Of a stretch of 64,000 bases of DNA, positions 19,703 through 48,927 are shown in pieces. The translations under genes and the position numbers were made by a program. The notes under the pieces were generated by a model that searched no databases, had not been told where the DNA came from, and saw only the letters and a list, made by a program, of their open reading frames with translations. Within the stretch, counting starts at the first letter, position 1, and every line of letters begins with the position of its first letter. Origin of the DNA: a virus (Duplodnaviria > Caudoviricetes); the IMG/VR virus record IMGVR_UViG_3300013947_000025, positions 1 through 64,000 of that record. One strand, 5' to 3'.

Positions 19703-20631
19703 CCCCCGGAACGAAGGTCTATTACGATGTGACGCGCGATGGCGAGACAAAGCCGTGGGAGTTCATCGTTTTAGGCGCGTCCGAGCAGGGAAACTCGGTT
19801 CTTATCATGTCCGCGCTGTGCTTTATGACAAAGCGCATGAACCCAACGAATGTCGCGGAGTATAACGAATGCGAGGCGGATGTATTCCTTGACGGTGAGT
19901 TTCTGACGACTTATTTTGACGAAAAGTTTATCGCGGCTCTGACACCGACGCAGATCAAGTGCTACTCGATAGCTGCTGCCGCCACTCAGACGCTTGCGAG
20001 AAAGTGCTTTCTTCCGAGCTATACGGAACTCGGTTGGACATCGGCGAACGATGAGGGCGCGTCCTATCTGCCCGCGCTGAAAACGTGGAGCAACAACACT
20101 GGCGACAATGCCGCGCAAGTCGCCTACAATACGGCGGGGGCTGCTCAGTGGTGGTGGATGCGGTCGGCGTCCTCCGGTTCGCAGTTCCGGTACGTGAACA
20201 CGATTGGCTACGCGGTCAGCTACAATGCCTCGATCTCGGGCTACTGGCTTCGCCCCGTTTTATCCGTGGCGAATGCCACAATCGTCTCCGACCAAGGGGA
20301 GGAGACAATCTATATCCTCCCTGACCCGGACAAGCTTTACCGCGAAGCAGAAGCGACTTTGTTTCTCGGCTCATCGGTGAAGCGTCCGAAGAAGGTCAGA
20401 CTGCTGACCGATGTCGAGAACGCGACTGAGCAGGTGTGGAAGGTATCTAATAACGCGAAGGACGAATCTCCGGTCTGGGTGACTGCCGCGGCTGATGGCA
20501 CAGCGGAACTGACGAGCACCACGAAGACCACGGACAGCTGGGAGCTGGGTGTACACGTGTACGTAAAATCGGGCGGAAAGGCGATAGTACAAGAGCCGAT
20601 ACTGCTCGTGGAAACGGAGGAGACGGAATGA
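19678..20631 (+). CDS. DGR target protein (C-type-lectin-like, DUF6273-like) with internal VR and extra C-terminal domain
   Basis: 'FLPSYTELG', 'WWWMRS...LRPVL' encoded by VR; ~120 aa follow the VR. Confidence 0.88.
   Translation: MSRTISELTPGTKVYYDVTRDGETKPWEFIVLGASEQGNSVLIMSALCFMTKRMNPTNVAEYNECEADVFLDGEFLTTYFDEKFIAALTPTQIKCYSIAAAATQTLARKCFLPSYTELGWTSANDEGASYLPALKTWSNNTGDNAAQVAYNTAGAAQWWWMRSASSGSQFRYVNTIGYAVSYNASISGYWLRPVLSVANATIVSDQGEETIYILPDPDKLYREAEATLFLGSSVKRPKKVRLLTDVENATEQVWKVSNNAKDESPVWVTAAADGTAELTSTTKTTDSWELGVHVYVKSGGKAIVQEPILLVETEETE
20133..20262 (+). repeat. DGR variable repeat (VR)
   Basis: Codon changes vs TR: GAT>GGT, AAC>TAC (x4), AAT>ATT, AAC>GTC, AAC>ATC. Confidence 0.97.
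20266..20279 (+). other. Hairpin 3' of VR (candidate DGR homing cruciform)
   Basis: GTGGC-GAAT-GCCAC 3 nt after the VR end; TR flank keeps only the right arm. Confidence 0.6.
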
Positions 20632-21626: not shown

Positions 21627-22037
21627 ATGAACGAAGCTTTAATCGAAGCAGCAAAGAAATATCGCAAGCTAATCGAAAAAGCCGTGCAATCCTTACCGGA
21701 TGAAGAAGCACTTGAATGCGTATGCCTTTATCAAAAATGGGACGGCAATGGAGTTGAATACGCTAAGGACACAAAGGTGCAAGACGATGGCGTGCTGTAC
21801 AATGTATTGCAAGCGCACACCTCACAGGCAGCATGGAAGCCCAAAGATGCACCAAGTTTGTTTGCCAAGGTGCTGATACCTGACCCGACCGTGATACCGG
21901 ATTGGGAACAACCTGATTCAACAAATCCTTATGCAAAGGGCGATAAGGTAAAATATGATGGTAAGACATGGGTAAGTACGGTTGATAACAACGTATGGAA
22001 ACCTGGAGAATATGGATGGGAGGAAATTAGCGAATGA
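21627..22037 (+). CDS. Tail-associated protein with CBM5/12-like repeats
   Basis: 'LQAHTSQAAWKP', 'YAKGDKVKYDGKTWVSTVDNNVWKPGEYGW'; N-terminus similar to 15843. Confidence 0.7.
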   Translation: MNEALIEAAKKYRKLIEKAVQSLPDEEALECVCLYQKWDGNGVEYAKDTKVQDDGVLYNVLQAHTSQAAWKPKDAPSLFAKVLIPDPTVIPDWEQPDSTNPYAKGDKVKYDGKTWVSTVDNNVWKPGEYGWEEISE

Positions 22038-22772
22038 GCAACGATAAAGTGCCATGTGGTGGTTTTACCCTTGGAGATGGCTTCTATATGGATGGTACAA
22101 CCCTGCGGGGGGGTATTTTATACTGTAAAGAAAAGTGAGATGACACAGAACCCCGCAAATCAACTATGGCTATATAAGAAGCAATTAACAGATGACGAAG
22201 CGACAGAATTGATTACAAAGTTGAAACAGATGGACAAAAATGCCATCTATATTATATACGAAGAAGATGATCGTACTAGTTATGCTTTTCTTGCAGAGTC
22301 TGTATTTGTTTCTGCTTCTGCTTTTACGATTTATAGTCAAGATAATCATTCAATAGGTCGTTGTAGTCTCAGACTAAGTACTCAAAATTCTCAAAAAATA
22401 TTGGTACTTATAATAACTGGTATGCCAACTCCTTATTTTCAGTTGTTTAATAAAGCGGGTTCAAGTTGGATGCCGATATTAAGCTATGAGACGTTTAATG
22501 GTTATTCGTTGTTTGAGATGCAGAATCATGCGAATATCTATCAACTTCGTATAGATGGTAAGTGCCTTAATCTCCAATTGTATTCTCCTTACATTAGTAA
22601 CATGATCAACAAGGGTAACCCAACCTACTATTTTTACTCTAATCCAATTACAGTAGATAATGATACATCTTATTATTATCGTGTAACGTGGGCTTATTCA
22701 GAAAGTAGCGTGTTAGGAACGGTCACCGTAGACAAAATAACATTTGCAAACACGTCAGTCGAAAGCGTGTAA
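22034..22772 (+). pseudogene. PCGGF-leader protein 1, out of frame at G7 tract (candidate phase-OFF)
   Basis: ATG 22034 overlaps the upstream stop (ATGA); MSNDKVPCGGFTLGDGFYMDGTTLRGG, G7 at 22107-22113, then stop; long ORF continues in the +1 frame to 22772. Confidence 0.75.
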
Positions 22773-25100: not shown

Positions 25101-25508
25101 ATGGCGGATTTACAAAAAGTTCCCTGCGGAGGATTTGAATTAGACTCTTCCCTCAAGCTTACCGATAATAAGTTAGGCGTAGCTGGGGGGGGTATATATT
25201 ATCTAAAGATTAACGCAGAACAAGTAGGTTCAAGTTCTTGGGAGTATTCTATCGCTGAGGATTCACAGTTAAAAACGTATGAAGAGATTGTTGAATGTAT
25301 AGAAAATGGAAATATTATTCGTTGTAATAAGAGTCCGGGAAGTTTGTTTACAGACATTATATTTCAAGACGATACCGCTATTTTGGAAGGTTTCGTTCTT
25401 AGGTTTGTACAACAAAATACGGTATATTTAAGTGGGACTATGATAACGTTTAATAAAGATAGCACAATAAAGTTTTTCACTCAACGCAGTATGAATATTA
25501 CACAATAA
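25101..25508 (+). CDS. PCGGF-leader protein 3 with in-frame G8 tract (candidate phase-ON)
   Basis: MADLQKVPCGGFELDS...VAGGG; G8 at 25185-25192; 'LKTYEEI'. Confidence 0.8.
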   Translation: MADLQKVPCGGFELDSSLKLTDNKLGVAGGGIYYLKINAEQVGSSSWEYSIAEDSQLKTYEEIVECIENGNIIRCNKSPGSLFTDIIFQDDTAILEGFVLRFVQQNTVYLSGTMITFNKDSTIKFFTQRSMNITQ

Positions 25509-25530
25509 TATAAAGAAAGGAAGATAATAT

Positions 25531-25930
25531 ATGAATAACGAAAATCCCAAAATCCCCTGCGGAGGTTTCCGCATAGGCGATGGTCTTACGATGGATGGCG
25601 ATACGTTGAAGAGCTTGGGGGGGGGCGTTTGTTCTTTTTAATATAAGAGCAGAGGTATTAACTGTCAGAGACGATTCCCCAATAAAAACTTACGAAGAAA
25701 TCAGAACGAATTTAAGGGCGGGCGTTCCTATAAAAGCAATGGCTTGGACGGGCGGGTCTTGGCTTGTCTTTGACACTCAAATAAATGATAGAATAGATTC
25801 TGTATGGGTTTATATATTTGAGCGAACTTTTATTGGATATGATAAACTTACGTTACAAACAGCAACAGTCAATCCTTCTGACGAATGGGAATATAAATCT
25901 ACTAATTATGCCCTCACCCCCACCACCTAA
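25531..25930 (+). pseudogene. PCGGF-leader protein 4, out of frame at G9 tract (candidate phase-OFF)
   Basis: MNNENPKIPCGGFRIGDGLTMDGDTLKSLGGG, G9 at 25617-25625, then TAA; +1 frame reads AFVLFNIRAEVLTVRDDSPIKTYEEIR... to 25930. Confidence 0.8.
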
Positions 25931-37827: not shown

Positions 37828-38470
37828 TTACTTCTTCCTCGAAAGTTTTTACCCACTCTTTAGCCCAATAATAACCCTTATATTTCGTGCCGTTTCTACA
37901 AGCTTTACACAATGCTGAATGGGCTTTGGTATGAAGGAACTTCTTGGCTTCTGTTACCGATGGAAAAATCTTTATTACATTTTTGTCATCATCAAGCATA
38001 TAGACACTTCTACCATTTATAGCATTCTCACCCGACTTGCCCCACATACCGTTCTTTTCGCCCGGACGCGCACAGCTTTCGCAAAACTCTTCGTCAAAAG
38101 CCTCAGGATGCTCTGTAACGTATTTCTTGCGTATTTCTGCCATACGTTGTGCGGTATTTTCATCTATTGCGTTTCCGCTCTTTTTGTTGTAGACTTTGTC
38201 ATATTTCTTAAAAGCGTCACGCGTGTACCACTCCTCTATCATAAAACGATGCCGTGGTTCACAAGTGTCTATAAGTTCTATTGTAAAATCTTCATTTTTC
38301 TGTTTGCGCATATCCGTGTACATAAGATTTGATTCAACACCAAGGCGTGCGCGCTTAAAATGCCCTTTTAATCGTGTTTCAATCTTATCTGCTAATGTTG
38401 AGCCGATATAGACCCAACCATTCGTTGTGTTAGTAATCTTGTAAATCTTAGCAACTTTTTCTTCACTCAT
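37820..38470 (-). CDS. GIY-YIG homing endonuclease with NUMOD-type C-terminus
   Basis: 'KIYKITN...VYIGST', 'GEKNGMWGK', 'IFPSVTEA...YKGYYW'. Confidence 0.85.
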   Translation of the reverse strand: MSEEKVAKIYKITNTTNGWVYIGSTLADKIETRLKGHFKRARLGVESNLMYTDMRKQKNEDFTIELIDTCEPRHRFMIEEWYTRDAFKKYDKVYNKKSGNAIDENTAQRMAEIRKKYVTEHPEAFDEEFCESCARPGEKNGMWGKSGENAINGRSVYMLDDDKNVIKIFPSVTEAKKFLHTKAHSALCKACRNGTKYKGYYWAKEWVKTFEEEVND

Positions 38471-38772
38471 CCTTCGTCCTCCTCATCTAATTCAACCCCT
38501 ACCCTTCCATAGCCCGGCTTAAACCATTCAAATGTCTCTTCAGGATGTTCCTTGACAAACTCTCTTAAAGCGTCTACACATCCACACATCTGATAATTTT
38601 CACTTTCTATTGCGAACTCGTCCATCCGATTGTGGCACTTGGATTCTATCGACCTTGAGGTAACAACTTCCCAACCTACGTGATTAAGAAGCATATTGTT
38701 AGTCAACGTATGTCTCATGGTCGTACTGCGCCAGTTTTCCTTGACTTCGCTCACAAAAAAATAATTTTTCAT
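38467..38772 (-). CDS. Hypothetical protein
   Basis: GAGGTG RBS; first gene after the promoter at 38822. Confidence 0.5.
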   Translation of the reverse strand: MKNYFFVSEVKENWRSTTMRHTLTNNMLLNHVGWEVVTSRSIESKCHNRMDEFAIESENYQMCGCVDALREFVKEHPEETFEWFKPGYGRVGVELDEEDEG

Positions 38773-38821
38773 AATCTCACCTCATAAACAAAATTGGTAG
38801 CCCTTGTTTTGGACTACCAAT

Positions 38822-38882
38822 ATTATACCACTTTTTTGATTGTTTGTCAAGGGGTTTTAAGAAATTTCTTGAAAAATTTTTT
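38822..38882 (-). promoter_or_regulatory. sigma-A promoter TTGACA-17-TATAAT with A/T tracts
   Basis: -10 at 38822-38827, -35 at 38845-38850. Confidence 0.8.
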
Positions 38883-39063
38883 ATTCTTTACTTTCCTCAA
38901 ACATCCAGTCCCGCCGCATAGCCAAGATTGAATTGCCCACCAACGTGATAGGCTTTATCATCTGCTTTGCGGGATTCTTCGATTAGCCAATCTTTGAATA
39001 GCTGAACTATGATGTTATCGTAGATTAGTTCGGTGAATGCTTGTTTTGCTTCGTCAAAATTGC

Positions 39064-39291
39064 TCATAATCTTATTTTCCAGCACCCTTCCTTAAAATAC
39101 CACCAAAATTCCTTTTCGGGACAAGATTTGTAGAAGTAATGTCCGTCCTCCCATTCATTTCCGCCAAAAATTTTAGCGTTTTGTTCATGCACGTATCTTT
39201 CCGCTTTATCGCGACTAAGAAAGCCTAATTTAGGTATGGGTGGAAATGCCGCATTGCTGTAATAGACGATGTAGTGCTGTACTCTGTTCAT
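39064..39291 (-). CDS. Hypothetical protein
   Basis: Co-oriented, abuts the methylase stop. Confidence 0.45.
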   Translation of the reverse strand: MNRVQHYIVYYSNAAFPPIPKLGFLSRDKAERYVHEQNAKIFGGNEWEDGHYFYKSCPEKEFWWYFKEGCWKIRL

Positions 39292-40005
39292 TTAAATTGT
39301 CCACAACCTTTCTATTCTAACCATACTTGTATTATCATCCTTTTTCAATGTTCTAATCTTTTCCTTCTGCCATATGCACATGAAATCATCAGGCGCGTGT
39401 TCCTCGCTTATAAACACCTTATGCCCCTGTTTAGCAAGCTGTCGCATATAATCCCAAAATTCATCATGGTTGAATGCGCCTGTTGAATAACCCGTTATTT
39501 CAGCATATGGGGGGTCAGCATATATGACGCTATGCTCAGGAATCACCACGTCTCTATAATCACCACACACGAATATAGCATTCTTCAATCCTGTCATGTC
39601 CCTCATCACACCGCGTTTCGCCTGACCGCAATAATCATCGCCACGTTTGTCATGAGCATATCCGCCAAACCACTTCCCACCAAACGAACAACCAAACCCT
39701 ACAAATCCCGTAAGTGCCGGATTCTCGTCTTTGTGCGCTTTGATATATTGATATCCTTCCTTGCTTACAGCATCCGGCGGTATCCATCCATCCTGTAGCC
39801 CTTGCCACATGGCGATAAGGTAAGGATGCAAATCGTTGCATATCTTAATATCCGCTTTGACCTTAGCTTCAATGGCGCAACCGCCACAGAATAGGCTCAC
39901 GAACGGTCGATGCACGCTCTCCTTATCCTGCCCCCCCCAAGTGAAGGGATTGATTATAGACGCTATTTCGCTTGATATAAGGCATTTGCCTCCCATGTAT
40001 CGCAT
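39292..40005 (-). CDS. DNA adenine methyltransferase (Dam/D12 class) with in-frame G8 tract
   Basis: 'MRYMGGK', 'LFCGG', 'IYADPPY', 'VFISE'; C8 at 39931-39938 (G8 on the coding strand, T-W-G-G-Q). Confidence 0.9.
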   Translation of the reverse strand: MRYMGGKCLISSEIASIINPFTWGGQDKESVHRPFVSLFCGGCAIEAKVKADIKICNDLHPYLIAMWQGLQDGWIPPDAVSKEGYQYIKAHKDENPALTGFVGFGCSFGGKWFGGYAHDKRGDDYCGQAKRGVMRDMTGLKNAIFVCGDYRDVVIPEHSVIYADPPYAEITGYSTGAFNHDEFWDYMRQLAKQGHKVFISEEHAPDDFMCIWQKEKIRTLKKDDNTSMVRIERLWTI

Positions 40006-40356
40006 TATATAATTACCTCCAATATGTCCCATATGCAACAAGCAACCATCAGTGACATCAGTACTAATCTATGCCGTCCGCCAAATCGTTTATAGCATTC
40101 CCAATTCAACCCAATACAGAATAGGGATAACGCAAAAATGGTTAAATCACGTAAGTTCATTTTCTATCTCCTCACATATGGCTCGCAATTACAACAACAA
40201 CTCCCGCAAGAAATAGTCCAACACCTCCTGCGAATGGATATACGCCAAACGCACAAGATTCTGAGCGACATTTTTTATGATTATATGAGTCCAATAACAT
40301 TGCAACGATACCCAAAATCATTAGAGCAAATCCAATTATACAAGTACATTTTAGCT

Positions 40357-40728
40357 TCATTCAATCTCCTCATTCCAGAACTGCTTACGGCATTCAAAGC
40401 AACCTACATCTCCAAGTTCATCAAACGCATGGCACTCTTTTGAGTTAATTTTCGAATGAATTATTTTACAAGGGTCAATATCCAGTACGCCATCAAAAAG
40501 TAACGCGTCCGGGAACATCTTCAGAAACTCGCTCTGCCGGGTCTTGCGAGGATGTTCCCGTGCCCACTGCTCGACGATTTCGACGGCTTTTTCAGGGCAT
40601 TCGTTGAAGAGACCAATGCAGTTAGCCCGCATTCCGTTATTCGCATATGACAACCCGCATTTTTCGCAGTTACCCTTCATCATCTCGTGCATCCTGTCCT
40701 TTTCTTTCAAAAATTCAACTGCGTCCAT
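40357..40728 (-). CDS. Hypothetical Cys-rich phage protein
   Basis: 'MDAVEFLKE', 'VEQWAREHPRKTRQSEFLKMFP'. Confidence 0.6.
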   Translation of the reverse strand: MDAVEFLKEKDRMHEMMKGNCEKCGLSYANNGMRANCIGLFNECPEKAVEIVEQWAREHPRKTRQSEFLKMFPDALLFDGVLDIDPCKIIHSKINSKECHAFDELGDVGCFECRKQFWNEEIE

Positions 40729-40936
40729 TTTTGTCCTCCTTAACTTTCGTTTCTAAATTCTTTATTCTCTGCTCCAACATTCCCATGCAATTGGTCATGT
40801 GACGCATGATTTCGTTGTGTTGCTTTATTACCTTAAGCGTAGCTATATCCTCTTTGTCGCGCTGAAAATCTGTGTAGACACAAAACGCGATTGCGCCGAA
40901 TGATAAAGCTATCGCAAGTATGCTTAGTGCGGTCAT
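40715..40936 (-). CDS. Small membrane-anchored coiled-coil protein
   Basis: N-terminal TM segment; first gene after the promoter at 40973. Confidence 0.5.
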   Translation of the reverse strand: MTALSILAIALSFGAIAFCVYTDFQRDKEDIATLKVIKQHNEIMRHMTNCMGMLEQRIKNLETKVKEDKNGRS

Positions 40937-40972
40937 GATTTATTTCCTTTCTCCATCTAAGATGGTATATAT

Positions 40973-41021
40973 ATTATAGCACATCAAACACGATTTGTCA
41001 AGGGGTTTAGAAAAAATTTTT
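40973..41021 (-). promoter_or_regulatory. sigma-A promoter TTGACA-17-TATAAT
   Basis: -10 at 40973-40978, -35 at 40996-41001. Confidence 0.8.
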
Positions 41022-41668
41022 CAAGATTTTTCTACTTTTATCAATTTGTCTTTCAAAACATAACCCAATTTGTAATTATTGTTGTTATCACCTTTGGGAT
41101 AGGGTTCTGTTTTCCATTTTAAGACTTGTTGCCATTGTTTCTTTAGATACTTTTTATGTGTACAAAAATAAACGTATCTATGCTTAGACGTTCTTACACG
41201 TCTATACTCACCCTGCTCATCGTTACTATAATGCCTTGGATGCTTGCCATCAGGGACATATTTGTCTGTGCGCTCTTTTGTTGCCCCTGTATAAATAAAA
41301 TTGCACGCTTGATAAATGTATCCGTGATGATTCATTGCTGTGTCGGAATATGATATTACAATTATATCATATTCCGACAACTGACGCAAACACCACGAGA
41401 CAAATCGGCTCAATGGCTCTTCTAAATCATCTGTGCGACATAAGCGATTTAATTCTATGACGTGATTCGCCCATTCTTTGCCACAAACTCCTTCGCACGG
41501 TTTTGGGGACGCAGGCTTACCGAATGTACACACGGCTTTTAATTCGTCGTTACGATACCATCCATAAGCATACGATACACAAGGAGCACGACCTGAATAG
41601 TGTCTGGGTAAAAGAAAATCAACTGCTGTTTTGTAATCAATGCGTCTCATTGGTGCTGATTGATTCAT
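41021..41668 (-). CDS. Mom-like (GNAT-fold) adenine-modifying enzyme
   Basis: 'RHYSG', 'IELNRLC', 'ISYSDTAMNHHGYIYQACNFIYTG', 'KHRYVY', 'PYPK'. Confidence 0.8.
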   Translation of the reverse strand: MNQSAPMRRIDYKTAVDFLLPRHYSGRAPCVSYAYGWYRNDELKAVCTFGKPASPKPCEGVCGKEWANHVIELNRLCRTDDLEEPLSRFVSWCLRQLSEYDIIVISYSDTAMNHHGYIYQACNFIYTGATKERTDKYVPDGKHPRHYSNDEQGEYRRVRTSKHRYVYFCTHKKYLKKQWQQVLKWKTEPYPKGDNNNNYKLGYVLKDKLIKVEKS

Positions 41669-42045
41669 TTGTTATCTTCCCCCAATCCCTTATCCTCAAT
41701 CATCTCATGAATCTTTTCAACGCAATCCTTGCATATATCGTAATATTCCTTGCCACTGTCACCCCTTAAATTGTCGCATATTATCAATAGCTTAAGATTG
41801 TTTTGAGGCTTCTCTTTGCCACAAAAATCGCAGAAATGTTTAGTCATTAGATTCCTCTTTCCCTATTCTAAATTTTTCGTTTCCATACTGCACATATAAA
41901 GCTCCTTCTGAAATTGCTTCTTGTAAAAAGCCGAAAATTGTCTTTCCGCACTCGCAACAAAAATTTCTTTCGACACCTAAAAAATTATAAGAATAACCAT
42001 CAATACCGTCTGTAAATTCCTTAGCGCACATTTCGCATTTTTTAG

Positions 42046-43143
42046 TCATCCCTCAATAACCTCCCTATTTGCATACAGTTCATTCCATTGCTCCTTTGTC
42101 CCATCAAATGGGCTACATTTATTCCAGTTCTCAAGCCCTATATTATTATACACTACGCTAACGTTACAGTAGCCCTTGAACTGCTTTGCTATATCAAACA
42201 TCTTCTTTTCAAATTTGTCATACTCAGGCGTATCAAGCCCCACAAAATCGCTATCAAAGCACAGGACAACATCCTTAACGCCCATCTTGATTATTTCATT
42301 CCTGCGTTTCAAGCCCAGCTGAGAGCCATACAGAGCCACACAGTTGTTGTCTCGTCCAAGAAATTCATTGGCTTTGAGGCAGCTCTTCTCCCCCTCACAT
42401 AACAATATCTGCTGAGTTCTCTCAATCGCTTCCCATGTATAGTTTATTCCATAGAACACTTGATTGGTTGGGAAAGCATATGACTGCCCATCAAGCGTTA
42501 TCAATGGAATATACTTAGCCGTCTCAAGCCGTTCGGGGTCAAGATTCCTACAGCGAATGCCTATAAGCTCACCCTCGCGATTCCGGCAGGGGATGCAGAT
42601 TTGATTAGCTCGGCGATAATATTTTATGCCAAATTTCTTTTGCGTCTCGATGCTTATACCCTCATCAATCCATCCTTCGTAATAACTTGATTCAAGCTCG
42701 TTCAGGATGCAAGGGTCAAAGGTCTTAAGCAAGGTATCGCCTTTACGCATACGGACAAATCGTTCAAGCCCTGACCAATCGCATATGTTGGGTTGCTTGC
42801 TTACGCGCTTGTAATTGCCTATCTCTTTGCCTGTTGATTGCGCTATGAATCCTACGGCGTCCATGAATGAGCAAGGTTTACCAAGGGTCTTCAGTCTGCG
42901 CTGTGTCAGCCCGATGATGTCGAATGAGCAAGCGCATTGAGTGACGCATTGAAACGACTTGGTATCCGTGTAGAAGATTAGATTGTGACCGCCCTTGTAA
43001 GCGTCCTTATGGTGGCAACCTGTGTAAAGTCTCCATGTCTTGTCTCCTTTGGTGTAGATGGGGATTGTCAAGTCGGTTAAGATTTTTTCACAATCCCCAA
43101 GCGTCAACTGCTGTTTCAGTGTTCGGGTGTTGATTTTTTCCAT
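42046..43143 (-). CDS. DNA primase (Zn-binding plus TOPRIM)
   Basis: 'CHH...C..QC', 'IPCRNREGELIGIRCR', 'LCEGEKS', 'CFDSD'. Confidence 0.85.
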   Translation of the reverse strand: MEKINTRTLKQQLTLGDCEKILTDLTIPIYTKGDKTWRLYTGCHHKDAYKGGHNLIFYTDTKSFQCVTQCACSFDIIGLTQRRLKTLGKPCSFMDAVGFIAQSTGKEIGNYKRVSKQPNICDWSGLERFVRMRKGDTLLKTFDPCILNELESSYYEGWIDEGISIETQKKFGIKYYRRANQICIPCRNREGELIGIRCRNLDPERLETAKYIPLITLDGQSYAFPTNQVFYGINYTWEAIERTQQILLCEGEKSCLKANEFLGRDNNCVALYGSQLGLKRRNEIIKMGVKDVVLCFDSDFVGLDTPEYDKFEKKMFDIAKQFKGYCNVSVVYNNIGLENWNKCSPFDGTKEQWNELYANREVIEG

Positions 43144-43556
43144 CGTCTAAGCATATCCTTCAACAAACTTTCTTTGAAAGCGTCAGCCACGTCTGTGCCT
43201 ATATTCTCAGGGCTAAGGGGGAAGCCAAATTCTGTCTTGCTTTCAAAGATTCCATCCCCAAGAACATGATCGAACAGGTTAGCATAATATTCCTTACACA
43301 GCTTACGTAATCGCTTGAATAGACGCTGATTACCATCGGCATACTTCCATTCATCAGCGACATTGTTGGCAGATGCTTTCCTTATCCGCAGTTCCTTGTA
43401 TACACAGGTCATCTGGGCAAAATATTCAACGCATGCATTCGCCGCCTTGTCAAGGCACTTGCCAAACATTTTGCCCATGTTGTATTGACCGCTCTGCGAT
43501 TCAAGGTCGTAGGTCAGCGTGTGCAACGCCTTGACCATATCAAATTCCTGCTTCAT
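43116..43556 (-). CDS. Hypothetical protein
   Basis: Likely start at MKQEFDM. Confidence 0.5.
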   Translation of the reverse strand: MKQEFDMVKALHTLTYDLESQSGQYNMGKMFGKCLDKAANACVEYFAQMTCVYKELRIRKASANNVADEWKYADGNQRLFKRLRKLCKEYYANLFDHVLGDGIFESKTEFGFPLSPENIGTDVADAFKESLLKDMLRRWKKSTPEH

Positions 43557-43740
43557 TTCTTTACCTTCCCTATTTCTGCGATATAGCTGACTTCGCCATC
43601 GCGTTTTTTCATTGCCCATATCTTGCCGCCGTATTCGATTTCACGATACCTCATGAAATGTCCATCCTTTTCGATTTCGTCATCGCTAAGGATTTTGCCG
43701 TAATGGAGCAAGTCTGCTCTGGTAGGTGTTGTTATCCAAG

Positions 43741-43983
43741 TCATCTGTAAAAATCCTTTCCTGCGTCAGTGAGTGCCCAATCGCATATAACACCGAATCC
43801 AAACATATACTCATCGTAGGATATTTCGCCCTTAAGCTCTTTTTTAAGAAGTTCATCAGCGAAGATTCTTGCTCCCGCAGTAAAAGTCCTTACTTTGCAT
43901 CCATCAATCGTAGTCTCCTGCGAATTTTCCTTTACTATCTCGCGAACCAACTTTGCCACATAGTCTCCTCTAATCGTACTCAT
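43741..43983 (-). CDS. Hypothetical protein
   Basis: AGGAG RBS before MSTIRGD; first gene after the promoter at 44041. Confidence 0.5.
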   Translation of the reverse strand: MSTIRGDYVAKLVREIVKENSQETTIDGCKVRTFTAGARIFADELLKKELKGEISYDEYMFGFGVICDWALTDAGKDFYR

Positions 43984-44040
43984 GTTATTATCTCCTTTAA
44001 GTTTATGTATTTGATTTATCCTTCTCTTGAGGACATATAT

Positions 44041-44105
44041 ATTATAGCACAAAAAAGGAGGTTTGTCAACCCCCTTTTCAAATTTTATTATGAACTTTTT
44101 GTAAA
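44041..44105 (-). promoter_or_regulatory. sigma-A promoter with TTTACA-N5-TTCATA box
   Basis: -10 at 44041-44046, -35 TTGACA at 44064-44069, box at 44089-44105. Confidence 0.8.
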
Positions 44106-44107
44106 CG

Positions 44108-45346
44108 TTACTTGCTCAGCCCAACAGGGATACCACGTCCAGCAAGTTCCTTCTTTGCTTCGCAGACATCATCCGAACAGAACATCTCCCTAAATTCCTT
44201 TAGCACCTCAATGAACCTATCAATATCCTGCTCATCCGTATCGTAGCCAAAGCTCAACCGGATACAATGTGCCGCTTCTTCCTTGGTTAATCCGTACGCT
44301 TCAGCGACACGATAATCGCCCTGTCCTGCGCAAGCCGAATGGAATGCGGAAAAATAAACTTGCCGTGTTGAAGCAAATTGCTGGAACGCATCTGCGTTGA
44401 TGTCGGGCAGGTACAGCCCTATGATACCAAGACTAAAGTCCTGCGTACCCCAATGGAACGATTTAACTATATCGTTGTAATCTTCGCGAATGTCGGCAAT
44501 GCCACGAATAAGACGTTCCCAAAGGGCGTTCCACTTGCTTTCAATGTATAATCCTTCCCAGCCATCTTTTCCACCAATGCATCTTTTTACCTCGTTCTGA
44601 CAATGTTCCATTGCTGTTGCCTGTGCCATTGCCTGAGCCACGTTAGGCGTACCGAAATGAAGCGGAGGCTCATTCCCTATACAATGTGCCTTCCACGCTC
44701 TATCGCTGAACCAGATGCCGCCCGTGCCTTTCTCAGCCCCTACCTTCTGCCCTGACCATATAGCTACATCACACCAATCGTCTATATTCTCGGGGATAGG
44801 CTCGTTGTGTAGACCTGCTGTAAGGTCGCAGACCATGTGCATACCGTATTGATGGACAAGGTTACCTATTTCCTTGACAGGCATAATTTGTCCCGTGAGA
44901 TTGTTGATGAACATCCATACACATGGACAAGGCGAACAAGTTTCATTCGATTCCTTTATCTTATCCTTGTTTATTCCAAGCCATAGTTTTAGCCCTTCAA
45001 GAGTTTTGCCAACAAACATATCTGGGCTGATACATTCACGTTTAGCGATATATGCAAGGCAATCATGCTCAAACGCGCTGATGGCACATGGTTCGCTAAA
45101 ATCGCTGTACAAATCCGCAAGATACTTGCCCATAATCGTAGCGTTTGCCCCAAAGATGATATGACCCGTCTTTGACCCAAGGGCTTCAAGGGCTATTGAT
45201 TCAGCTTCTTTTAGTTGTTTCTGGTCGCTTAGGGCATAGGGCTGATTGGGGTTATAATTTGTTCCTGTATTGAAGTCCCACCCCCAATATGTTGTGGGGG
45301 CGGATGCTGCATAATCAAGATATACTGGTTTATTCATTTGATTCAC
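44108..45346 (-). CDS. Cysteine desulfurase (IscS/DndA-like, PLP class V)
   Basis: 'VYLDYAASAP', 'NNLTGQIMPV', 'SGQKVGAEKGTG' (PLP Lys), 'GTPNV', 'HSAC' (catalytic Cys), 'IRLSFG'. Confidence 0.85.
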   Translation of the reverse strand: MNQMNKPVYLDYAASAPTTYWGWDFNTGTNYNPNQPYALSDQKQLKEAESIALEALGSKTGHIIFGANATIMGKYLADLYSDFSEPCAISAFEHDCLAYIAKRECISPDMFVGKTLEGLKLWLGINKDKIKESNETCSPCPCVWMFINNLTGQIMPVKEIGNLVHQYGMHMVCDLTAGLHNEPIPENIDDWCDVAIWSGQKVGAEKGTGGIWFSDRAWKAHCIGNEPPLHFGTPNVAQAMAQATAMEHCQNEVKRCIGGKDGWEGLYIESKWNALWERLIRGIADIREDYNDIVKSFHWGTQDFSLGIIGLYLPDINADAFQQFASTRQVYFSAFHSACAGQGDYRVAEAYGLTKEEAAHCIRLSFGYDTDEQDIDRFIEVLKEFREMFCSDDVCEAKKELAGRGIPVGLSK

Positions 45347-46408
45347 TTTCTGTTAATTTACGCTGTTTTTCAGCTTCTTCTTTTTCGTGGTAAATTCGTC
45401 TATATTCATCACGTTTTGCTTCATCGCCATCATTCCACCATTTTACGTTGATGTAATCGAGGACTTTAGCCATACCAAGCCCCTTATCGGGTATCCACAT
45501 TCCAGATTCATCATATTTACCACCACGCATACAATAGTCATAAAGTTGAGAATGGGTTAAAGCCATTTGTTGAAAACGGTTAGGGAGCTTCTCTTGAAGA
45601 CAACCAAAAGCACAAAATACGCACCCCGTCCTATTCATTCTTGAAAGGCTGTACTTGCCTTTTGCATAAATTATTTCACCATAGGGAGGCGCAATGGTAA
45701 TTTTGTTATCGTAGATATATTTTAACACGTCTTGCTCTGTCCAGAATGCCATCGGAGTTGATTGGGGAATTGCAAGTGTGTCAAAAGCATTGCATCCATT
45801 TTTTAACCATGCGTCTCTACGCCTACGACTTTCTTCCGTTAAAGTTCCTATAAACGCTTTGCGTCCGCTTTCTTTTTCGTAATGATGAAGAGGAGATTTT
45901 TTCATTACATCGCAACACAAATCGTCTATTTTGAAATCTGCTTCCAACAGGAATTTCCACTTGGTGCAATTATATTGAGATTCTTTACCGTCTTTACCCG
46001 GATATGTTCCTTCAAACATCTTATGCGCAGCTGTGTCGTTACGTTTAGATTTACGAACCTCACCCACACGACAAGCAATATTTTTGCTGATGATAGGATA
46101 CCCATACTTAGTCAGCACCTCACTAAACGTCATTTTAGGCTTAACCCAGACAACGTTATCAAACCCTCTAACAAACTCCCTGATTTCTGGAAATTCCAAA
46201 CCTGTATCAGCAAATACTGCGGGCACATCTGGATATATTTTTCTTACTAAATCAAGCAATACTGTACTGTCTTTGCCACCTGAGAAGGAAACATATACTT
46301 GCCCCCCCCCCAGTTCTCGTACCATTCAATAATTCTGGCGGTTGATATTTGAATTTTCTCTTCAAGAGACTTGGATTGTAGCTCTTTTAATTCCTCTTTG
46401 GTTGGCAT
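45330..46408 (-). pseudogene. PAPS-reductase-family (DndC/SspD-like) protein, out of frame at G10 tract (candidate phase-OFF)
   Basis: 'VSFSGGKDSTVL', 'DTGLEFPE', 'CCDVMKK', 'RTGCVFC'; N-terminal MPTKEELKELQSKSLEEKIQISTARIIEWYENW from ATG 46408 (GAGG RBS) joins the main ORF only with G8 or G11; C10 at 46302-46311. Confidence 0.8.
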
Positions 46409-46416
46409 ATTTTACC

Positions 46417-46839
46417 TCACAGACACGTAGTATCTTCCCAATAATCCTTGGTAACGTATACATTAACCTCGTCCTCAAACTTAACGCCAAAGACAAGCGT
46501 ATCGCCAGACATGGTAATGTAAAATTCTCCCGCCTTCCATTCGGGAGACATTAGATGGTCATAGCACTTGTCAACCATTCCCTGAATTTCTTCGTCCTTA
46601 ATCTCTACTGCCGACTCGCTGTCCGTATGGTCAAATGTTGTCCCCCACGTGGGAGTCATCACACGATAATCGCTAATGAATATTTCCTCGCCGCAGACAG
46701 GACAGGTCAAGCACATCATACCCCATAATCCCATGTGTTCATCCACTTCGTTATACTCAAGCTCTGCGCCACAATGGTCGCATATGGTGCGCTTTGGATA
46801 AGCTGTTTCCTTAACTTCGCTTCTGCTAATTACCTTCAT
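46417..46839 (-). CDS. Zn-ribbon hypothetical protein
   Basis: CDHC and CPVC motifs. Confidence 0.55.
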   Translation of the reverse strand: MKVISRSEVKETAYPKRTICDHCGAELEYNEVDEHMGLWGMMCLTCPVCGEEIFISDYRVMTPTWGTTFDHTDSESAVEIKDEEIQGMVDKCYDHLMSPEWKAGEFYITMSGDTLVFGVKFEDEVNVYVTKDYWEDTTCL

Positions 46840-46849
46840 AAAATCCTCC

Positions 46850-48388
46850 TTAAATCTTTACCCATGAATTTATTTCTTTTAATAGAATCGCTGTACCAGT
46901 ATTGTTGACTTTAGATACCGTGTACGCACGACCTACCATTGATGCCGGAACTGTTTTACCGTTGGTGTATACATCATTTGATTTAATGGTGTACTTGTCA
47001 CCTACGGAATATTTAGACATGGTTGTTGATGGTGAATTATTGCCCATCTTCCATTCTGAATAAGACACTACCTTGTTTAGAAATTCTGTCCAATGGGGGA
47101 TGATATAAACAGGACAATTTTTTCTTGCACCATAGATTATCTTATCGTCTGGTTGCCCCATGAACCAGTTATGCGTATAAATATCGTTGATGGTCAAATC
47201 ATGAATATCACATAGGAAAGCAATCAACTTTGCCGCATTGTCTTCAGCTTCCTTGTAGTTGCCTGCAACCTCTATAGCGATGGTATCAAGGTTACCCCCT
47301 ATAATCATACCCTTAGTAGCTTTATCGTGCGCTGTGCGCCTTGTAGAGCCGTCTCCGGCGTGCCAACCACGTTCCACATGACCCTCAGATGTACAAAGCA
47401 ATTGCCAGATTGAATACTCATCAACATAGTAGTGAACCATTGCACCACCCATGTTTCCGTTATAAGTTGCCCTACAATAGACCTCAGCAGGCGTAGTGCC
47501 GCTTGGAGCATCTAAGGTCGATGTGTTATGAACCGTTATGCCCCTTGGGTAGCCTGTGCCGTTATTGACCAAAGCGCATGGCTTGATGGGCTGACCCTTT
47601 TTGACATAAGACGCAACATCCTTGGGCGCACGAAAGGTGTTAGGGACGATTTTTTGATAAACTGTAAATCCTCTACCACTCGGCGTATAAAGATTCAAGG
47701 TCTTGTCGGGGATAAGAAATCCTTGGCTTGTTCTGTCTGTAGATGCGGTCGTTGTAGGCTTTGTAGGGGCTGTACCCTTGGTATAGATAGCAACAACATT
47801 ATCAACAGCACGATTATATGCGGATGAAGTCTTCTTTTCGCCATTGACAAACATTCCTGTTGAACCTCCTCCATCAAGGTTAATTGCGTACTTGCAACCG
47901 AGCTTCTTCATATACGCCTGTGCTTCGATAAGATTCATGCCCGGATTATCAACGCACACAAGCATCACAAAATCATCGTCATAACCAAGCAATGTGCGCC
48001 TTGCCTTGTAGTTGATTTCCTTGGCAAACGTGATTGTGATGCTTTGTGAATCATCAAGCAGGTTTGGATAACCAGACACAAAATCACGCCACCTACGACT
48101 ATTTAATTCACCGTAAATAAGCTGATTTTCACCAATAATGCCCATGCCCCATTTATACTTAGCATTGGTCGCTTTTGCTTTGCCCTCGTCCATATAATTA
48201 AACACTGGCTCACGCGTTGACATATTGAAGAACCCGCCATTGGTCAAGATGGTTGGCTTCTCCGATTGTCGTGCATAGTAGGCTGATAACGTCTCTGCTG
48301 GCTGTTGACAAGCATCAAAATCAATGCGCTTGATTTCCCACTTAGGAACAATCGTCACACAGACGCTACCGTCTCGATAGAATTGCAT
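46850..48388 (-). CDS. Putative endolysin: phosphodiester glycosidase (NAGPA-like) plus N-acetylmuramoyl-L-alanine amidase
   Basis: 'NGGFF', 'RRTLLG', 'AINLDGGGST'; 'ITVHNT', 'HYYVD', 'GWHAGDG', 'IAIE', 'KNCP'. Confidence 0.8.
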   Translation of the reverse strand: MQFYRDGSVCVTIVPKWEIKRIDFDACQQPAETLSAYYARQSEKPTILTNGGFFNMSTREPVFNYMDEGKAKATNAKYKWGMGIIGENQLIYGELNSRRWRDFVSGYPNLLDDSQSITITFAKEINYKARRTLLGYDDDFVMLVCVDNPGMNLIEAQAYMKKLGCKYAINLDGGGSTGMFVNGEKKTSSAYNRAVDNVVAIYTKGTAPTKPTTTASTDRTSQGFLIPDKTLNLYTPSGRGFTVYQKIVPNTFRAPKDVASYVKKGQPIKPCALVNNGTGYPRGITVHNTSTLDAPSGTTPAEVYCRATYNGNMGGAMVHYYVDEYSIWQLLCTSEGHVERGWHAGDGSTRRTAHDKATKGMIIGGNLDTIAIEVAGNYKEAEDNAAKLIAFLCDIHDLTINDIYTHNWFMGQPDDKIIYGARKNCPVYIIPHWTEFLNKVVSYSEWKMGNNSPSTTMSKYSVGDKYTIKSNDVYTNGKTVPASMVGRAYTVSKVNNTGTAILLKEINSWVKI

Positions 48389-48927
48389 TCATCTTCCTCC
48401 TTGATTATTTCTTCCCCTAAATTGGGGTTTATTAACTCGCCCTCATGATTGATGTAGGGTGCGTTACCATCATGTCGTATAGGGTTTAATACCGCATAGT
48501 TGCCATCTTCATCCATAAAAATAATGGGCTTTAGTCGTGTTGTGTAGAACATCCTCATTGCGCCCGGCAAGAGCTTCATTATCCTCAGCATATAGTAAGG
48601 ATTAACGAAAAGATAGATGCTTTTGTCAAGCTCGTAAGGAAAAGGTCTGCGCGTGTTTTTGCCTGATATATTCCTTACCTTTACCATGAAATCAATATCT
48701 GGAACTCTCTGCATCTTAGCAGACACTGGAGCGTCGAGGTATTGAAGCAAATCTTTGTCTACGCCTTGGGACTCAGGAAGGTTTGGTTTCTTTGTAAAAT
48801 AGAAACAACTAATTCCATCAGTCACAATCCAAAACTTCCCCTGCTTAAATGTTCCTTGTAATTCCGGATGGTTGGGATTTGTTATTAACCCCTTTAACAT
48901 TTGCACCTGCGATCCTGTCATTTTCAT
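48355..48927 (-). CDS. Hypothetical protein
   Basis: Co-oriented ORF. Confidence 0.5.
   Translation of the reverse strand: MKMTGSQVQMLKGLITNPNHPELQGTFKQGKFWIVTDGISCFYFTKKPNLPESQGVDKDLLQYLDAPVSAKMQRVPDIDFMVKVRNISGKNTRRPFPYELDKSIYLFVNPYYMLRIMKLLPGAMRMFYTTRLKPIIFMDEDGNYAVLNPIRHDGNAPYINHEGELINPNLGEEIIKEEDECNSIETVASV

What the first reader, a model, noticed from the sequence alone, without database searches (positions are those of the whole stretch)
39292..46408. Poly-G contingency tracts also sit in the 5' ends of DNA-modification genes (possible phage phasevarion)
Seen: the Dam-like MTase has G8 at codons ~23-25 (39931-39938, in frame, W-G-G-Q). The PAPS-reductase-family gene has G10 at codons ~33-36 (46302-46311, out of frame; G8 would also give W-G-G-Q). 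Every G/C run of 7 or more that I found in the AT-rich half is G on the coding strand and lies within the first ~36 codons of either a structural or a modification gene. That pattern is unlikely by chance. The C5-MTase in the left half also has an in-frame G7 (2819-2825). Established: phase-variable methyltransferases are known in bacteria. Inference: the phage population may hedge its DNA modification state against restriction versus modification-dependent defences.
Basis: partly seen in the sequence, partly recalled or inferred. Interest (0 to 1): 0.78.

Follow-up and report, generated by a model that had tools for sequence, protein, structure and literature searches.

The report
Poly-G switches in phage DNA-modification genes
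A roughly 100-kb gut phage carries runs of 8-10 G near the start of its DNA-methylase and sulfur-modification genes; these runs change length between otherwise near-identical phage genomes and put the genes in or out of frame, a rare but already described way for phages to vary how their DNA is marked.

Summary
G/C runs of 8 or more are about 10-fold over chance in the AT-rich phage (6 seen, 0.5-0.9 expected).

All five runs of 7 or more in the window's AT-rich half are G on the coding strand, within the first 36 codons. Outside the window one more fits (a second Dam-like MTase, G9, off) and three do not. The C5-MTase G7 is mid-gene, within chance, and sits in a GC-rich module that may belong to another phage.

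The refutation test failed: tracts are not invariant.
- In independent assemblies 98-100% identical to this phage, the PAPS-like tract is G8 (on, 358 aa), G9 or G10.
- The MTase1 tract is G8 (on) or G9 (off).
- The MTase2 tract is G9 or G8 (on).
- Two 20.6-kb assemblies differ only at the MTase1 tract.
- More distant MTase1 orthologues carry (GA)7-11 at the same linker.

Best reading: slipped-strand contingency switches on accessory DNA-modification genes. Bet-hedging against restriction is inferred. A regulatory "phasevarion" is not shown.

Precedents exist (Campylobacter phage poly-G tracts; the A-run in T2 agt). This scan has also noted poly-G-switched phage methyltransferases in at least 34 other genomes. 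I class it as a new variant of a known kind, of moderate interest.

The parts
39292..40008 (-). MTase1: orphan D12-class (Dam-like) N6-adenine DNA methyltransferase, 238 aa, ON in this record
   Evidence: Pfam PF02086, 54 bits against a cut-off of 22; phrog_56. Motif I FCGGC and catalytic DPPY are present.
39931..39938 (-). G8 tract of MTase1. It encodes W24-G25-G26 in the linker between the N-terminal YMGGK motif and motif I.
   Evidence: G8 in 6 other assemblies and G9 (off, gene split 51+202/207 aa) in L093 and L098. L091 has G9 in frame through a 3-nt (GGA) insertion. L092 and L093 are identical over 20,648 bp except for this tract.
45330..46408 (-). PAPS-reductase-domain (PP-loop) gene, OFF in this record. 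The 33-codon leader from ATG 46408 is out of frame with the body 45330-46325.
   Evidence: Pfam PF01507, phrog_424; PADLOC BrxP 5.8e-19 and SspD 7e-8. The leader is conserved in distant homologues. The gene is absent in L091/L100 and triplicated in L096.
46302..46311 (-). G10 tract of the PAPS-like gene (W-G-G site). G8 or G11 is ON.
   Evidence: G10 here and in L094, G9 in L092/L093, and G8 giving a 358-aa protein in L095/L097/L099. A 63%-identical orthologue (L004) has G6 out of frame. L005 and L023 carry interrupted tracts.
44108..45346 (-). Cysteine-desulfurase-like (class V aminotransferase) gene overlapping the 3' end of the PAPS-like gene; probable sulfur donor. No tract.
   Evidence: Pfam PF00266; PADLOC SspA 1e-17 and DndA 3e-15. 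All NCBIfam hits fall below their cut-offs.
41021..41668 (-). Mom-family gene in the same modification-gene neighbourhood. No tract.
   Evidence: Pfam PF25680, 110 bits. The protein is identical in 23 contigs.
22034..22772 (+). PCGGF-leader gene 1 with a G7 tract at 22107-22113, OFF (structural/tail-region paralogue; same kind of switch)
   Evidence: The tract is G7, G8 or G10 in relatives.
25101..25508 (+). PCGGF-leader gene 2 with a G8 tract at 25185-25192, ON
   Evidence: G7 (off) in L106-L108 and L110.
25531..25930 (+). PCGGF-leader gene 3 with a G9 tract at 25617-25625, OFF
   Evidence: G8 (on, 132 aa) in L106-L108 and L110, reciprocal to gene 2.

Best explanation
The poly-G tracts are slipped-strand contingency switches. 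Each sits in the first 25-60 codons of an accessory gene, at a pre-existing W-x-G or G-G site that has been recoded to TGG GGG GGG. A gain or loss of one G during phage DNA replication moves the body of the gene out of or into frame.

The switched set has two parts:
- a family of tail-region 'PCGGF' genes;
- the phage's nucleic-acid-modification genes: two Dam-like D12 methyltransferases, a third small N6A methyltransferase in some strains, and one to three PAPS-reductase-like sulfur-transfer genes.

Each switch is independent, so a burst should contain a mixture of modification states. In this record MTase1 is on, while MTase2 and the PAPS-like gene are off.

What is shown: the tracts exist and are enriched and positioned non-randomly. 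Their lengths differ between near-identical natural genomes. Both in-frame and out-of-frame alleles occur for every modification-gene switch.

What is inferred: slippage is the mechanism, switching is frequent and reversible within a population, the enzymes modify phage DNA, and the mixture is a bet-hedge between restriction of unmodified DNA and modification-dependent (type IV, DpnI-like or PT-sensing) defences.
For: 1) Enrichment and placement. There are 6 runs of 8 or more against 0.5-0.9 expected. All 5 genic ones are G on the coding strand within 36 codons. GGG is the rarest Gly codon.

2) Length polymorphism with identical flanks, in assemblies from different samples and sources (ENA, JGI, Logan) that are 97.9-100% identical to this phage.
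- PAPS-like tract: G8, G9 or G10.
- MTase1: G8 or G9.
- Extra Dam gene: G8 or G9.
- MTase2: G9 in six assemblies and G8 in L121.
- PCGGF tracts: G7-G10.

3) Strain-level contrast. L092 and L093 have 0 mismatches in 20,648 bp and differ only at the MTase1 tract. L092 and L098 likewise over 12,388 bp.

4) Coverage. Several of these assemblies have high coverage (193x and 358x in the contig names), so the consensus lengths reflect population majorities.

5) Convergence.
- MTase1 orthologues at 57-62% identity carry (GA)11, (GA)8 or (GA)7 at the same linker. In the (GA)7 copy the match begins only at query residue 25, at the repeat. Others carry no repeat.
- PAPS-like homologues in other phages carry G6 out of frame at the same site, or (ACAG)12 or G8-G9 elsewhere in the gene.
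- All seven modification-gene tracts, across three unrelated families, encode W-G-G.

6) Locked variants. Interrupted TGGGAGGGG or TGGGGCGGG versions occur in sister lineages.

7) Accessory status. The PAPS-like gene is present in 0, 1 or 3 copies, and the extra Dam gene is present or absent.

8) A history of restriction pressure. GATC, GGCC and CTAG have observed/expected ratios of 0.11, 0.01 and 0.05.

9) Precedent. An A-run in T2 agt acts as a contingency locus between TgvAB and McrA/BC. Campylobacter phage poly-G tracts are cited.
Against: - No read-level data: no sequencing run was listed. Within-population heterogeneity, switching rate and reversibility are therefore unmeasured.
- Consensus differences between samples could reflect slow drift rather than rapid switching.
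- Two cultured relatives (CB457P2 and CB473P2, 2 SNPs apart) have identical tract lengths.
- MTase2 was G9 (off) in six of seven assemblies and has DIPY instead of DPPY, so it may be decaying.
- PCGGF gene 1 was off at all three lengths seen.
- MTase specificity is unknown.
- DNA as the substrate of the PAPS-like protein is unproven. tRNA thiolation enzymes share the fold, the DndC model gave no hit at the search threshold, and the neighbours searched carry no DndD/SspC-like ATPase domain.
Confidence: 0.72

Rival explanations
1. Decay rather than design. The tracts are ordinary mutational hot spots in dispensable accessory genes. Off alleles are pseudogenes on the way to loss, and the polymorphism has no adaptive value.
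For: - The PAPS-like gene is deleted outright in L091/L100.
- MTase2 is off in 6 of 7 assemblies and has a non-canonical DIPY motif.
- PCGGF gene 1 is off at every length seen.
- The record itself has 4 of 6 switches off.
Against: - Decay does not create G8-G10 runs from the rarest Gly codon at the same early position in unrelated genes.
- In-frame alleles persist for every modification-gene switch. The in-frame length is G8 wherever such an allele was seen (one MTase1 allele, L091, is in frame at G9 through a 3-nt insertion); one PAPS paralogue in L096, seen only off at G8, would need G7 or G10.
- Off alleles show no second lesion.
- A different repeat type, (GA)n, sits at the same MTase1 site in other lineages.
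Confidence: 0.13
2. Sequencing or assembly artefact. The homopolymer lengths are miscalled, and the genes are really intact and invariant.
For: - Homopolymers of 8-10 are error-prone.
- Some contigs have only about 10x coverage (L101, L109).
- L092 and L093 could be two assemblies of related or identical reads.
Against: - Errors cannot explain why the long tracts exist, are enriched or are placed as they are.
- The same length recurs in independent pipelines and sources: L093 and L098 are identical, as are L097 and L099.
- High-coverage SPAdes contigs (193x, 358x) disagree with each other at tracts but not at other homopolymers in coding sequence.
- In-frame alleles are G8 wherever such an allele was seen, apart from one 3-nt insertion allele.
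Confidence: 0.04
3. Recoding. The out-of-frame alleles are still expressed, through transcriptional slippage on the G-run or ribosomal frameshifting. The tract would then tune dosage or make two isoforms rather than switch the gene off. For example, G10 in the PAPS-like gene leaves an internal ATG (46325) in frame with a 331-aa body.
For: - Long homopolymers can cause RNA polymerase slippage (general knowledge).
- The G10 allele keeps an in-frame internal start four codons before the tract.
Against: - DNA-level length variation is seen directly.
- G9 alleles have no such internal rescue.
- The conserved N-terminal helix or motif would be lost.
- No frameshift-stimulating structure was looked for or found.
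Confidence: 0.06
4. True phasevarion. Switching of the Dam-like methyltransferases changes expression of phage or host genes (for example the neighbouring mom-like gene, as Dam does in Mu), not protection from restriction.
For: - A Mom-family gene lies about 1 kb from MTase1.
- Dam-dependent control of mom is established for phage Mu (general knowledge).
Against: - Only 41 GATC sites remain in 102 kb. None lies upstream of the mom-like gene, and there are no promoter clusters.
- MTase specificity is unknown.
- This is probably a lytic phage, which has little time for epigenetic regulation.
Confidence: 0.05

Closest known systems
Phage contingency loci in T-even phages, notably the A-run in T2 agt (Gomez, Barrick and Waters, bioRxiv 10.1101/2025.10.21.683753; read)
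   Same: A homopolymer inside a phage DNA-modification gene frameshifts reversibly. The population then holds both modified and unmodified genomes, each favoured on hosts with a different restriction system.
   Different: - There the runs are A6-A9, at a density expected from composition, and mid-gene. Here they are G8-G10, about 10-fold over chance, and placed in the first 25-60 codons at W-G-G sites.
- Here several independent switches act on different chemistries (m6A and a sulfur-transfer enzyme).
- The evidence here is natural allele variation, not experiment.
- The host is probably a gut Firmicute, not E. coli.
Hypermutable poly-G tracts of Campylobacter Fletchervirus phages (Sorensen et al. 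2021, Cell Rep 35:109214; paper not held, cited in PMC12823448)
   Same: Poly-G tracts in phage genes produce phenotypic diversity by frameshifting. The PCGGF tail-region genes here look like the same use.
   Different: From my own recollection, that work concerns receptor-binding genes in 26%-GC phages of a host that itself uses poly-G switching. I could not read the paper to check whether modification genes were included.
Bacterial phase-variable methyltransferases (Type III mod / Type I hsd phasevarions; cj0031 of C. jejuni, PMC4889913; review PMC13076061)
   Same: A simple-sequence repeat in the 5' part of an N6-adenine methyltransferase gene switches it on and off.
   Different: - Those enzymes belong to restriction-modification systems of bacterial chromosomes and control regulons.
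- Here the enzymes are orphan Dam-like phage genes with no nuclease partner, and no regulon is shown.
- The 2026 review does not mention phase-variable phage-encoded MTases in the passages found.
bpm adenine methyltransferase of Bordetella phage BPP-1 (AY029185)
   Same: A phage adenine-MTase gene holds the only long G run of its genome: G8 at nt 585-592 of bpm.
   Different: - The tract is mid-gene in a 65%-GC temperate phage.
- Whether it varies, and whether the original paper discussed it, I could not check. That lead came from an earlier scan note.
Enterocloster bolteae phages PMBT24, CB457P1/P2 and CB473P1-P3 (closest cultured relatives; DnaE about 40% identical)
   Same: - Large siphophages of about 100 kb with the same replication-module content: DnaE, NrdD/G, dUTPase, RecJ-like, DnaB.
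- They carry 3-5 G/C runs of 8 or more in 31-33% GC genomes (I estimate about 0.06 expected).
- Two genes with a shared 'LNRFPTGGG' leader are split by G10 and G9 and are mis-annotated.
   Different: - Their tracts sit mostly in tail or Gly-rich genes. Only a G7 lies in the Dmt methyltransferase, at codon 154.
- The PMBT24 paper does not mention homopolymers.
- Two near-identical isolates show no tract difference.

Membership tests
Simple-sequence-repeat contingency locus | Repeat tract within the coding sequence (or promoter) whose unit number sets the reading frame | tested here: met
   Wherever an in-frame allele was seen, G8 is the in-frame length and G7/G9/G10 are out of frame: MTase1, MTase2, the extra Dam gene, the PAPS-like gene and PCGGF genes 2 and 3. 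PCGGF gene 1 and one PAPS paralogue in L096 were seen only out of frame and need other lengths.
Simple-sequence-repeat contingency locus | Tract length is polymorphic among otherwise near-identical genomes | tested here: met
   Examples: 0 mismatches in 20,648 bp with one tract indel; PAPS-like tract G8/G9/G10.
Simple-sequence-repeat contingency locus | High-frequency, reversible switching within a clonal population | not testable with these tools
   No sequencing run was listed for read-level analysis. This needs deep accurate reads or reversion assays.
Phasevarion (phase-variable regulon) | The switching methyltransferase belongs to a Type I or Type III restriction-modification system | tested here: not met
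   Both are orphan D12/Dam-like genes. Neighbours searched were a GIY-YIG endonuclease-like gene, a Mom-family gene and a primase-like gene (several small neighbouring ORFs were not searched). No res or hsd genes were found.
Phasevarion (phase-variable regulon) | Methylation state changes expression of a set of genes | not testable with these tools
   Indirect only: the 41 remaining GATC sites show no promoter clustering.
D12-class N6-adenine DNA methyltransferase (Pfam PF02086) | Profile match above the curated cut-off, plus AdoMet motif I and catalytic (D/N/S)PP(Y/F/W) | tested here: met
   MTase1: 54.1 bits against a cut-off of 22, FCGGC at residue 39 and DPPY at 164. MTase2: 34.8 bits against 22, but DIPY in place of DPPY, so its catalytic competence is uncertain.
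Dam (GATC-specific) orthologue | Match to the Dam equivalog/subfamily model above cut-off, or a demonstrated GATC specificity | tested here: not met
   TIGR00571 scores 54 bits against a cut-off of 115; PRK10904 scores 20 against 441. Specificity is unknown.
DNA phosphorothioation systems (Dnd / Ssp / BREX type 4 BrxP) | PAPS-reductase-domain protein (DndC/SspD/BrxP) with a cysteine desulfurase | tested here: inconclusive
   The PAPS-like protein matches PADLOC BrxP (5.8e-19) and SspD (7e-8) over the PP-loop region only. The desulfurase-like protein matches SspA/DndA. The DndC equivalog model gave no hit at the search threshold, and all NCBIfam hits fall below their cut-offs.
DNA phosphorothioation systems (Dnd / Ssp / BREX type 4 BrxP) | Partner P-loop NTPase (DndD/SspC/BrxC), required for PT synthesis according to PMC12914056 | tested here: not met
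   No such domain in the neighbours searched: 41021-43619 and 46417-48927.

The most novel reading that the evidence does not exclude
Large siphophages of gut Clostridia, including this phage, the poly-G-dense relatives L026/L028/L037 and the cultured Enterocloster phages, may run a lineage-wide combinatorial 'modification phasotype'. Every accessory DNA-marking gene (several m6A and m5C specificities, and a sulfur-based mark) carries its own early W-G-G poly-G, or (GA)n, switch. One burst would then release up to 2^n differently marked genomes. The same device independently switches tail-tip genes. If so, this would be a general, evolved phage answer to the conflict between restriction-modification and modification-dependent defences, and it could be tested in a cultured system.
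Probability: 0.3. Interest if true: 0.7.

Novelty: new variant of a known kind. Interest (0 to 1): 0.5.

Why it matters
A phage faces opposite risks. Unmodified DNA is cut by classical restriction enzymes, and modified DNA is cut by type IV, DpnI-like or PT-sensing systems. Independent mutational switches on several modification genes would let one phage population pre-adapt to hosts it cannot predict.

Three things would follow if that is right:
- It would help explain how broad or shifting host ranges persist in the gut.
- It would warn annotators that 'frameshifted' phage methyltransferases are often live switches rather than pseudogenes.
- It matters for phage therapy and for reading methylation-based host-linkage data, because one phage genotype may carry several epigenotypes.

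The cultured Enterocloster phages carry the same kind of tract, so the idea can be tested at the bench.

Tried and rejected
- Read-level check: the look-up of sequencing runs listed no run for 39000-47000, so read laying could not be used.
- Pattern scans for the MTase1 and PAPS tract flanks found nothing in viral contigs or metagenome contigs. Near-identical records are left out of those scans, so this says nothing either way.
- megablast of 38-50 kb against cultured phages: no match.
I then found the natural G8 allele with a homology search on the 196-aa ORF instead.
- Host search with the endolysin in genome contigs: no relative found. The host is inferred only from the Enterocloster phage relatives.
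- Exact look-up of the cysteine-desulfurase product with the GTG start: not on record. Relatives call a 409-aa form.
- Rfam and tRNA scans of the ORF-free region around the intergenic G8 (genome 70670): nothing found.
- Mu-like Dam control of mom: no GATC sites upstream of the mom-like gene, so rejected as unsupported.
- C5-MTase G7 as part of the pattern: rejected. It is mid-gene, within chance, and in a GC-rich module that has its own terminase, portal and capsid genes.
- Pfam on the tract-bearing genes of cultured relatives gave only one Gly-rich domain.
- The Sorensen 2021 and Liu 2004 papers are not held.

Full report
**What the window is.** The window is the first 64 kb of a 124,408-bp IMG/VR virus record. 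Bases 1-21.5k are 56% GC and the rest is about 41% GC. The finding lies in the AT-rich part. That part encodes a DnaE-type polymerase, NrdD/G, a dUTPase, a RecJ-like protein and DnaB. Its nearest cultured relatives are the roughly 100-kb virulent siphophages of Enterocloster bolteae (DnaE about 40% identical). The host is therefore probably a gut Clostridium-class Firmicute, but this is inference only; a direct host search found nothing.

**Observation.**
- The gene at 39292-40008 (-) is a D12-class N6-adenine methyltransferase: PF02086 at 54 bits, motif I FCGGC, catalytic DPPY.
- Its G8 encodes W24-G25-G26, in the linker between the N-terminal YMGGK motif and motif I.
- The gene at 45330-46408 (-) has a PAPS-reductase (PP-loop) domain (PF01507, phrog_424).
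- Its G10 separates a 33-codon leader from the body, out of frame. G8 or G11 would read E-N-W-G-G-Q-V-Y-V-S-F-S-G-G-K-D.
- The leader is conserved in distant homologues, so the full-length form is the real gene.

**Is it more than chance?**
- In the 102.4-kb AT-rich part there are 6 G/C runs of 8 or more, against 0.5-0.9 expected under Markov orders 0-4 (P 2e-5 to 3e-4).
- The G/C run-length histogram is bimodal: 2 runs of length 6 and 9 of length 7-10. A/T runs never exceed 8, although A and T are the commoner bases.
- GGG is the rarest glycine codon (11%), and the other W-G-G sites in the genome use GGC/GGT/GGA.
- Only 13.6% of coding positions lie in the first 36 codons, yet all five genic runs of 8 or more lie there, as G on the coding strand (P about 5e-5, or about 1e-6 with strand).
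It is not right for the whole record. One further tract fits: a second Dam-like MTase at genome 66495-67206 with G9, out of frame. Three do not fit.
- The C5-MTase G7 is at codon 107 and within chance for 56% GC. It lies in a module with its own terminase, portal and capsid genes.

**The decisive test: are the tracts invariant in relatives?** They are not. Exact-protein look-ups of neighbouring genes returned independent assemblies (ENA, JGI, Logan; different samples) that are 97.9-100% identical to this phage.

| Switch | Lengths seen |
|---|---|
| PAPS-like gene | G10 here and in L094; G9 in L092/L093; G8 giving an intact 358-aa protein in L095/L097/L099 |
| MTase1 | G8 in most; G9 (gene split 51+202/207 aa) in L093 and L098; L091 has G9 in frame through a 3-nt (GGA) insertion |
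| Third small N6A MTase (TIGR01712, above cut-off; present only in some strains) | G8 (on) or G9 (split 68+94 aa), just before its NPPY motif |
| MTase2 | G9 (off) in six assemblies; G8 (236 aa, on) in L121. The homology search also shows both 236-aa and 196-aa forms in an 80%-identical lineage |
| Three PCGGF tail-region genes | G7/G8/G10, G7/G8 and G8/G9 |

- L092 and L093 have no mismatch over 20,648 bp and differ only at the MTase1 tract. The same holds for L092 and L098 over 12,388 bp.
- Wherever an in-frame allele was seen it has G8, apart from the L091 insertion allele. One PAPS paralogue in L096, seen only off at G8, would need G7 or G10.
- Several of the contigs have 190-360x coverage.

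**Convergence.**
- MTase1 orthologues in more distant viral contigs (57-86% identity) carry, at the same linker, G8, (GA)11, (GA)8, (GA)7 or no repeat. In the (GA)7 copy the match begins only at query residue 25, at the repeat.
- At the PAPS-like W-x-G site, a 63%-identical orthologue has G6 out of frame. Sister lineages have interrupted, locked versions (TGGGAGGGG, TGGGGCGGG). MTase2's 80% lineage has the same interruption.
- Strain L096 has three tandem PAPS-like paralogues, each with its own tract (G8 off, G8 on, G9 off).
- All seven modification-gene tracts, from three unrelated protein families, encode W-G-G. The switch therefore seems to arise by recoding a pre-existing W-x-G site to TGG GGG GGG.
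- Other gut-virome loci fetched in passing are even denser: 6-8 tracts in 7 kb, including one after the PCQ motif of a C5-MTase that is G8 (on) in L026 and G9 (off) in L028.
- The cultured Enterocloster phages also carry 3-5 runs of 8 or more in 31-33% GC genomes. These split unannotated genes with a shared leader. The PMBT24 paper does not mention them.

**What the genes do.** MTase1 looks catalytically complete. MTase2 has DIPY in place of DPPY. Neither reaches the Dam model cut-offs, so GATC specificity is not established.

The AT-rich genome is strongly depleted in three short palindromes, which shows a long history of restriction pressure:
- GATC: 41 seen, about 390 expected.
- GGCC: 2 seen, about 200 expected.
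- CTAG: 7 seen, about 145 expected.

The PAPS-like gene overlaps a cysteine-desulfurase-like gene. The pair resembles SspD/BrxP plus SspA/DndA in PADLOC. However, the DndC model gave no hit at the search threshold, and the neighbours searched carry no DndD/SspC-type ATPase domain, which PMC12914056 treats as required for phosphorothioation. A sulfur-based nucleic-acid modification is likely. Whether the substrate is DNA or tRNA is open. A Mom-family gene lies between the two loci but has no tract and no upstream GATC sites.

**Mechanism proposed.** Slipped-strand mispairing at G8-G10 during phage replication gives plus or minus 1 frameshifts. Each switch is independent, so progeny differ in which marks their DNA carries. 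This is most plausibly a bet-hedge between restriction of unmarked DNA and defences that attack marked DNA.
- Shown: the tracts, their non-random placement, DNA-level length polymorphism, and the existence of both frames.
- Inferred: switching rate, reversibility, enzyme targets and the fitness trade-off.

**Rivals.**
- Decay of dispensable genes (0.13). It does not explain why rare-codon tracts arise at the same early position in unrelated genes, or why in-frame G8 alleles persist.
- Assembly error (0.04). It cannot create the tracts, and the same lengths recur across pipelines.
- Recoding at the RNA or ribosome level (0.06) and a true regulatory phasevarion (0.05) are not excluded but have no positive support.

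**Comparison and novelty.** The principle is published.
- Campylobacter Fletchervirus poly-G tracts: Sorensen 2021, cited.
- Closest in logic: the A-run contingency locus in T2 agt, which toggles glucosylation between TgvAB and McrA/BC hosts (bioRxiv 10.1101/2025.10.21.683753).
- Bordetella phage BPP-1 has a G8 in its bpm adenine MTase.
- This scan has itself flagged poly-G or other repeat-switched phage methyltransferases in at least 34 other genomes.

What is different here:
- The tracts are dedicated, statistically exceptional and early in the gene.
- Several independent switches act on adenine methyltransferases and a sulfur-transfer gene in one phage.
- The W-G-G design and the alternative (GA)n repeat converge on the same sites.
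- Natural on/off alleles are documented for every modification-gene switch.
- There is a link to cultured Enterocloster phages.

I rate it a new variant of a known kind, interest 0.5.

Noticed in passing
window 1-21600, and genome 123766-124408 (outside the window): The 56%-GC left part has its own TerL, SSB, C5-MTase, portal, ClpP protease and capsid genes. Contigs carrying its C5-MTase are all under 50 kb, whereas the AT-rich phage assembles alone as 103-106 kb contigs. The last 643 bp of the record are 90.7% identical to 19678-20320, a DUF6273 gene. The record may therefore join two phages through a shared tail gene. Against that, the independent contig L109 spans the same junction at 99.6% identity.
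   Followed up: partly
genome 21600-124000 compared with 1-21500: GGCC (2 seen, about 200 expected), CTAG (7 vs 145) and GATC (41 vs 390) are strongly avoided in the AT-rich part. GGCC and CTAG are also avoided in the GC-rich part, but GATC is not (139 sites).
   Followed up: partly
genome 70670-70677 (outside the window; matches L101:7555-7562): A G8 tract lies in a GC-rich patch of a roughly 1-kb ORF-free stretch between a GP88-family gene and a RecJ-like gene. It has the same length in L101. There is no Rfam or tRNA hit. It remains unexplained.
   Followed up: partly
L111/L112 (Enterocloster phage PMBT24, 47928 and 78317); L116/L117 (CB457P2, 72989 and 41463): Cultured relatives have genes with a shared 9-codon leader (M-x-x-LNRFPTGGG) that are split by G10 or G9 and annotated as fragments or gaps. 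One small ORF begins M-S-K-W-G-G-Q, with G8 in CB457P2 and G7 in PMBT24.
   Followed up: partly
L026, L027, L028, L030, L037 (IMG/VR contigs of 13.7-127 kb): These loci hold 6-8 poly-G tracts in about 7 kb. Tracts fall after the PCQ motif and at GGG motifs of C5-methyltransferase pieces. L026 and L028 differ in length at four tracts.
   Followed up: partly
L058:3271 (PAPS-reductase homologue, 38% identical): An (ACAG)12 tetranucleotide repeat lies inside the gene, a different repeat class in the same gene family.
   Followed up: no
window 25101-25930: PCGGF genes 2 and 3 are in reciprocal states in all six assemblies: either G8 on with G9 off, or G7 off with G8 on. This could be linkage within strains or mutual exclusivity.
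   Followed up: no
window 38470-39292 and 43143-46408, compared with L091, L095-L097, L100: The modification-gene neighbourhood varies between strains. The PAPS-like gene is present in 0, 1 or 3 copies. An extra Dam gene is inserted after MTase1. HNH endonuclease genes come and go. NrdD carries an intein in L095.
   Followed up: no
genome 66495-67206 (outside the window): The second Dam-like MTase has DIPY where the catalytic DPPY is expected. The G8 (on) allele in L121 also has S for G in motif I.
   Followed up: no
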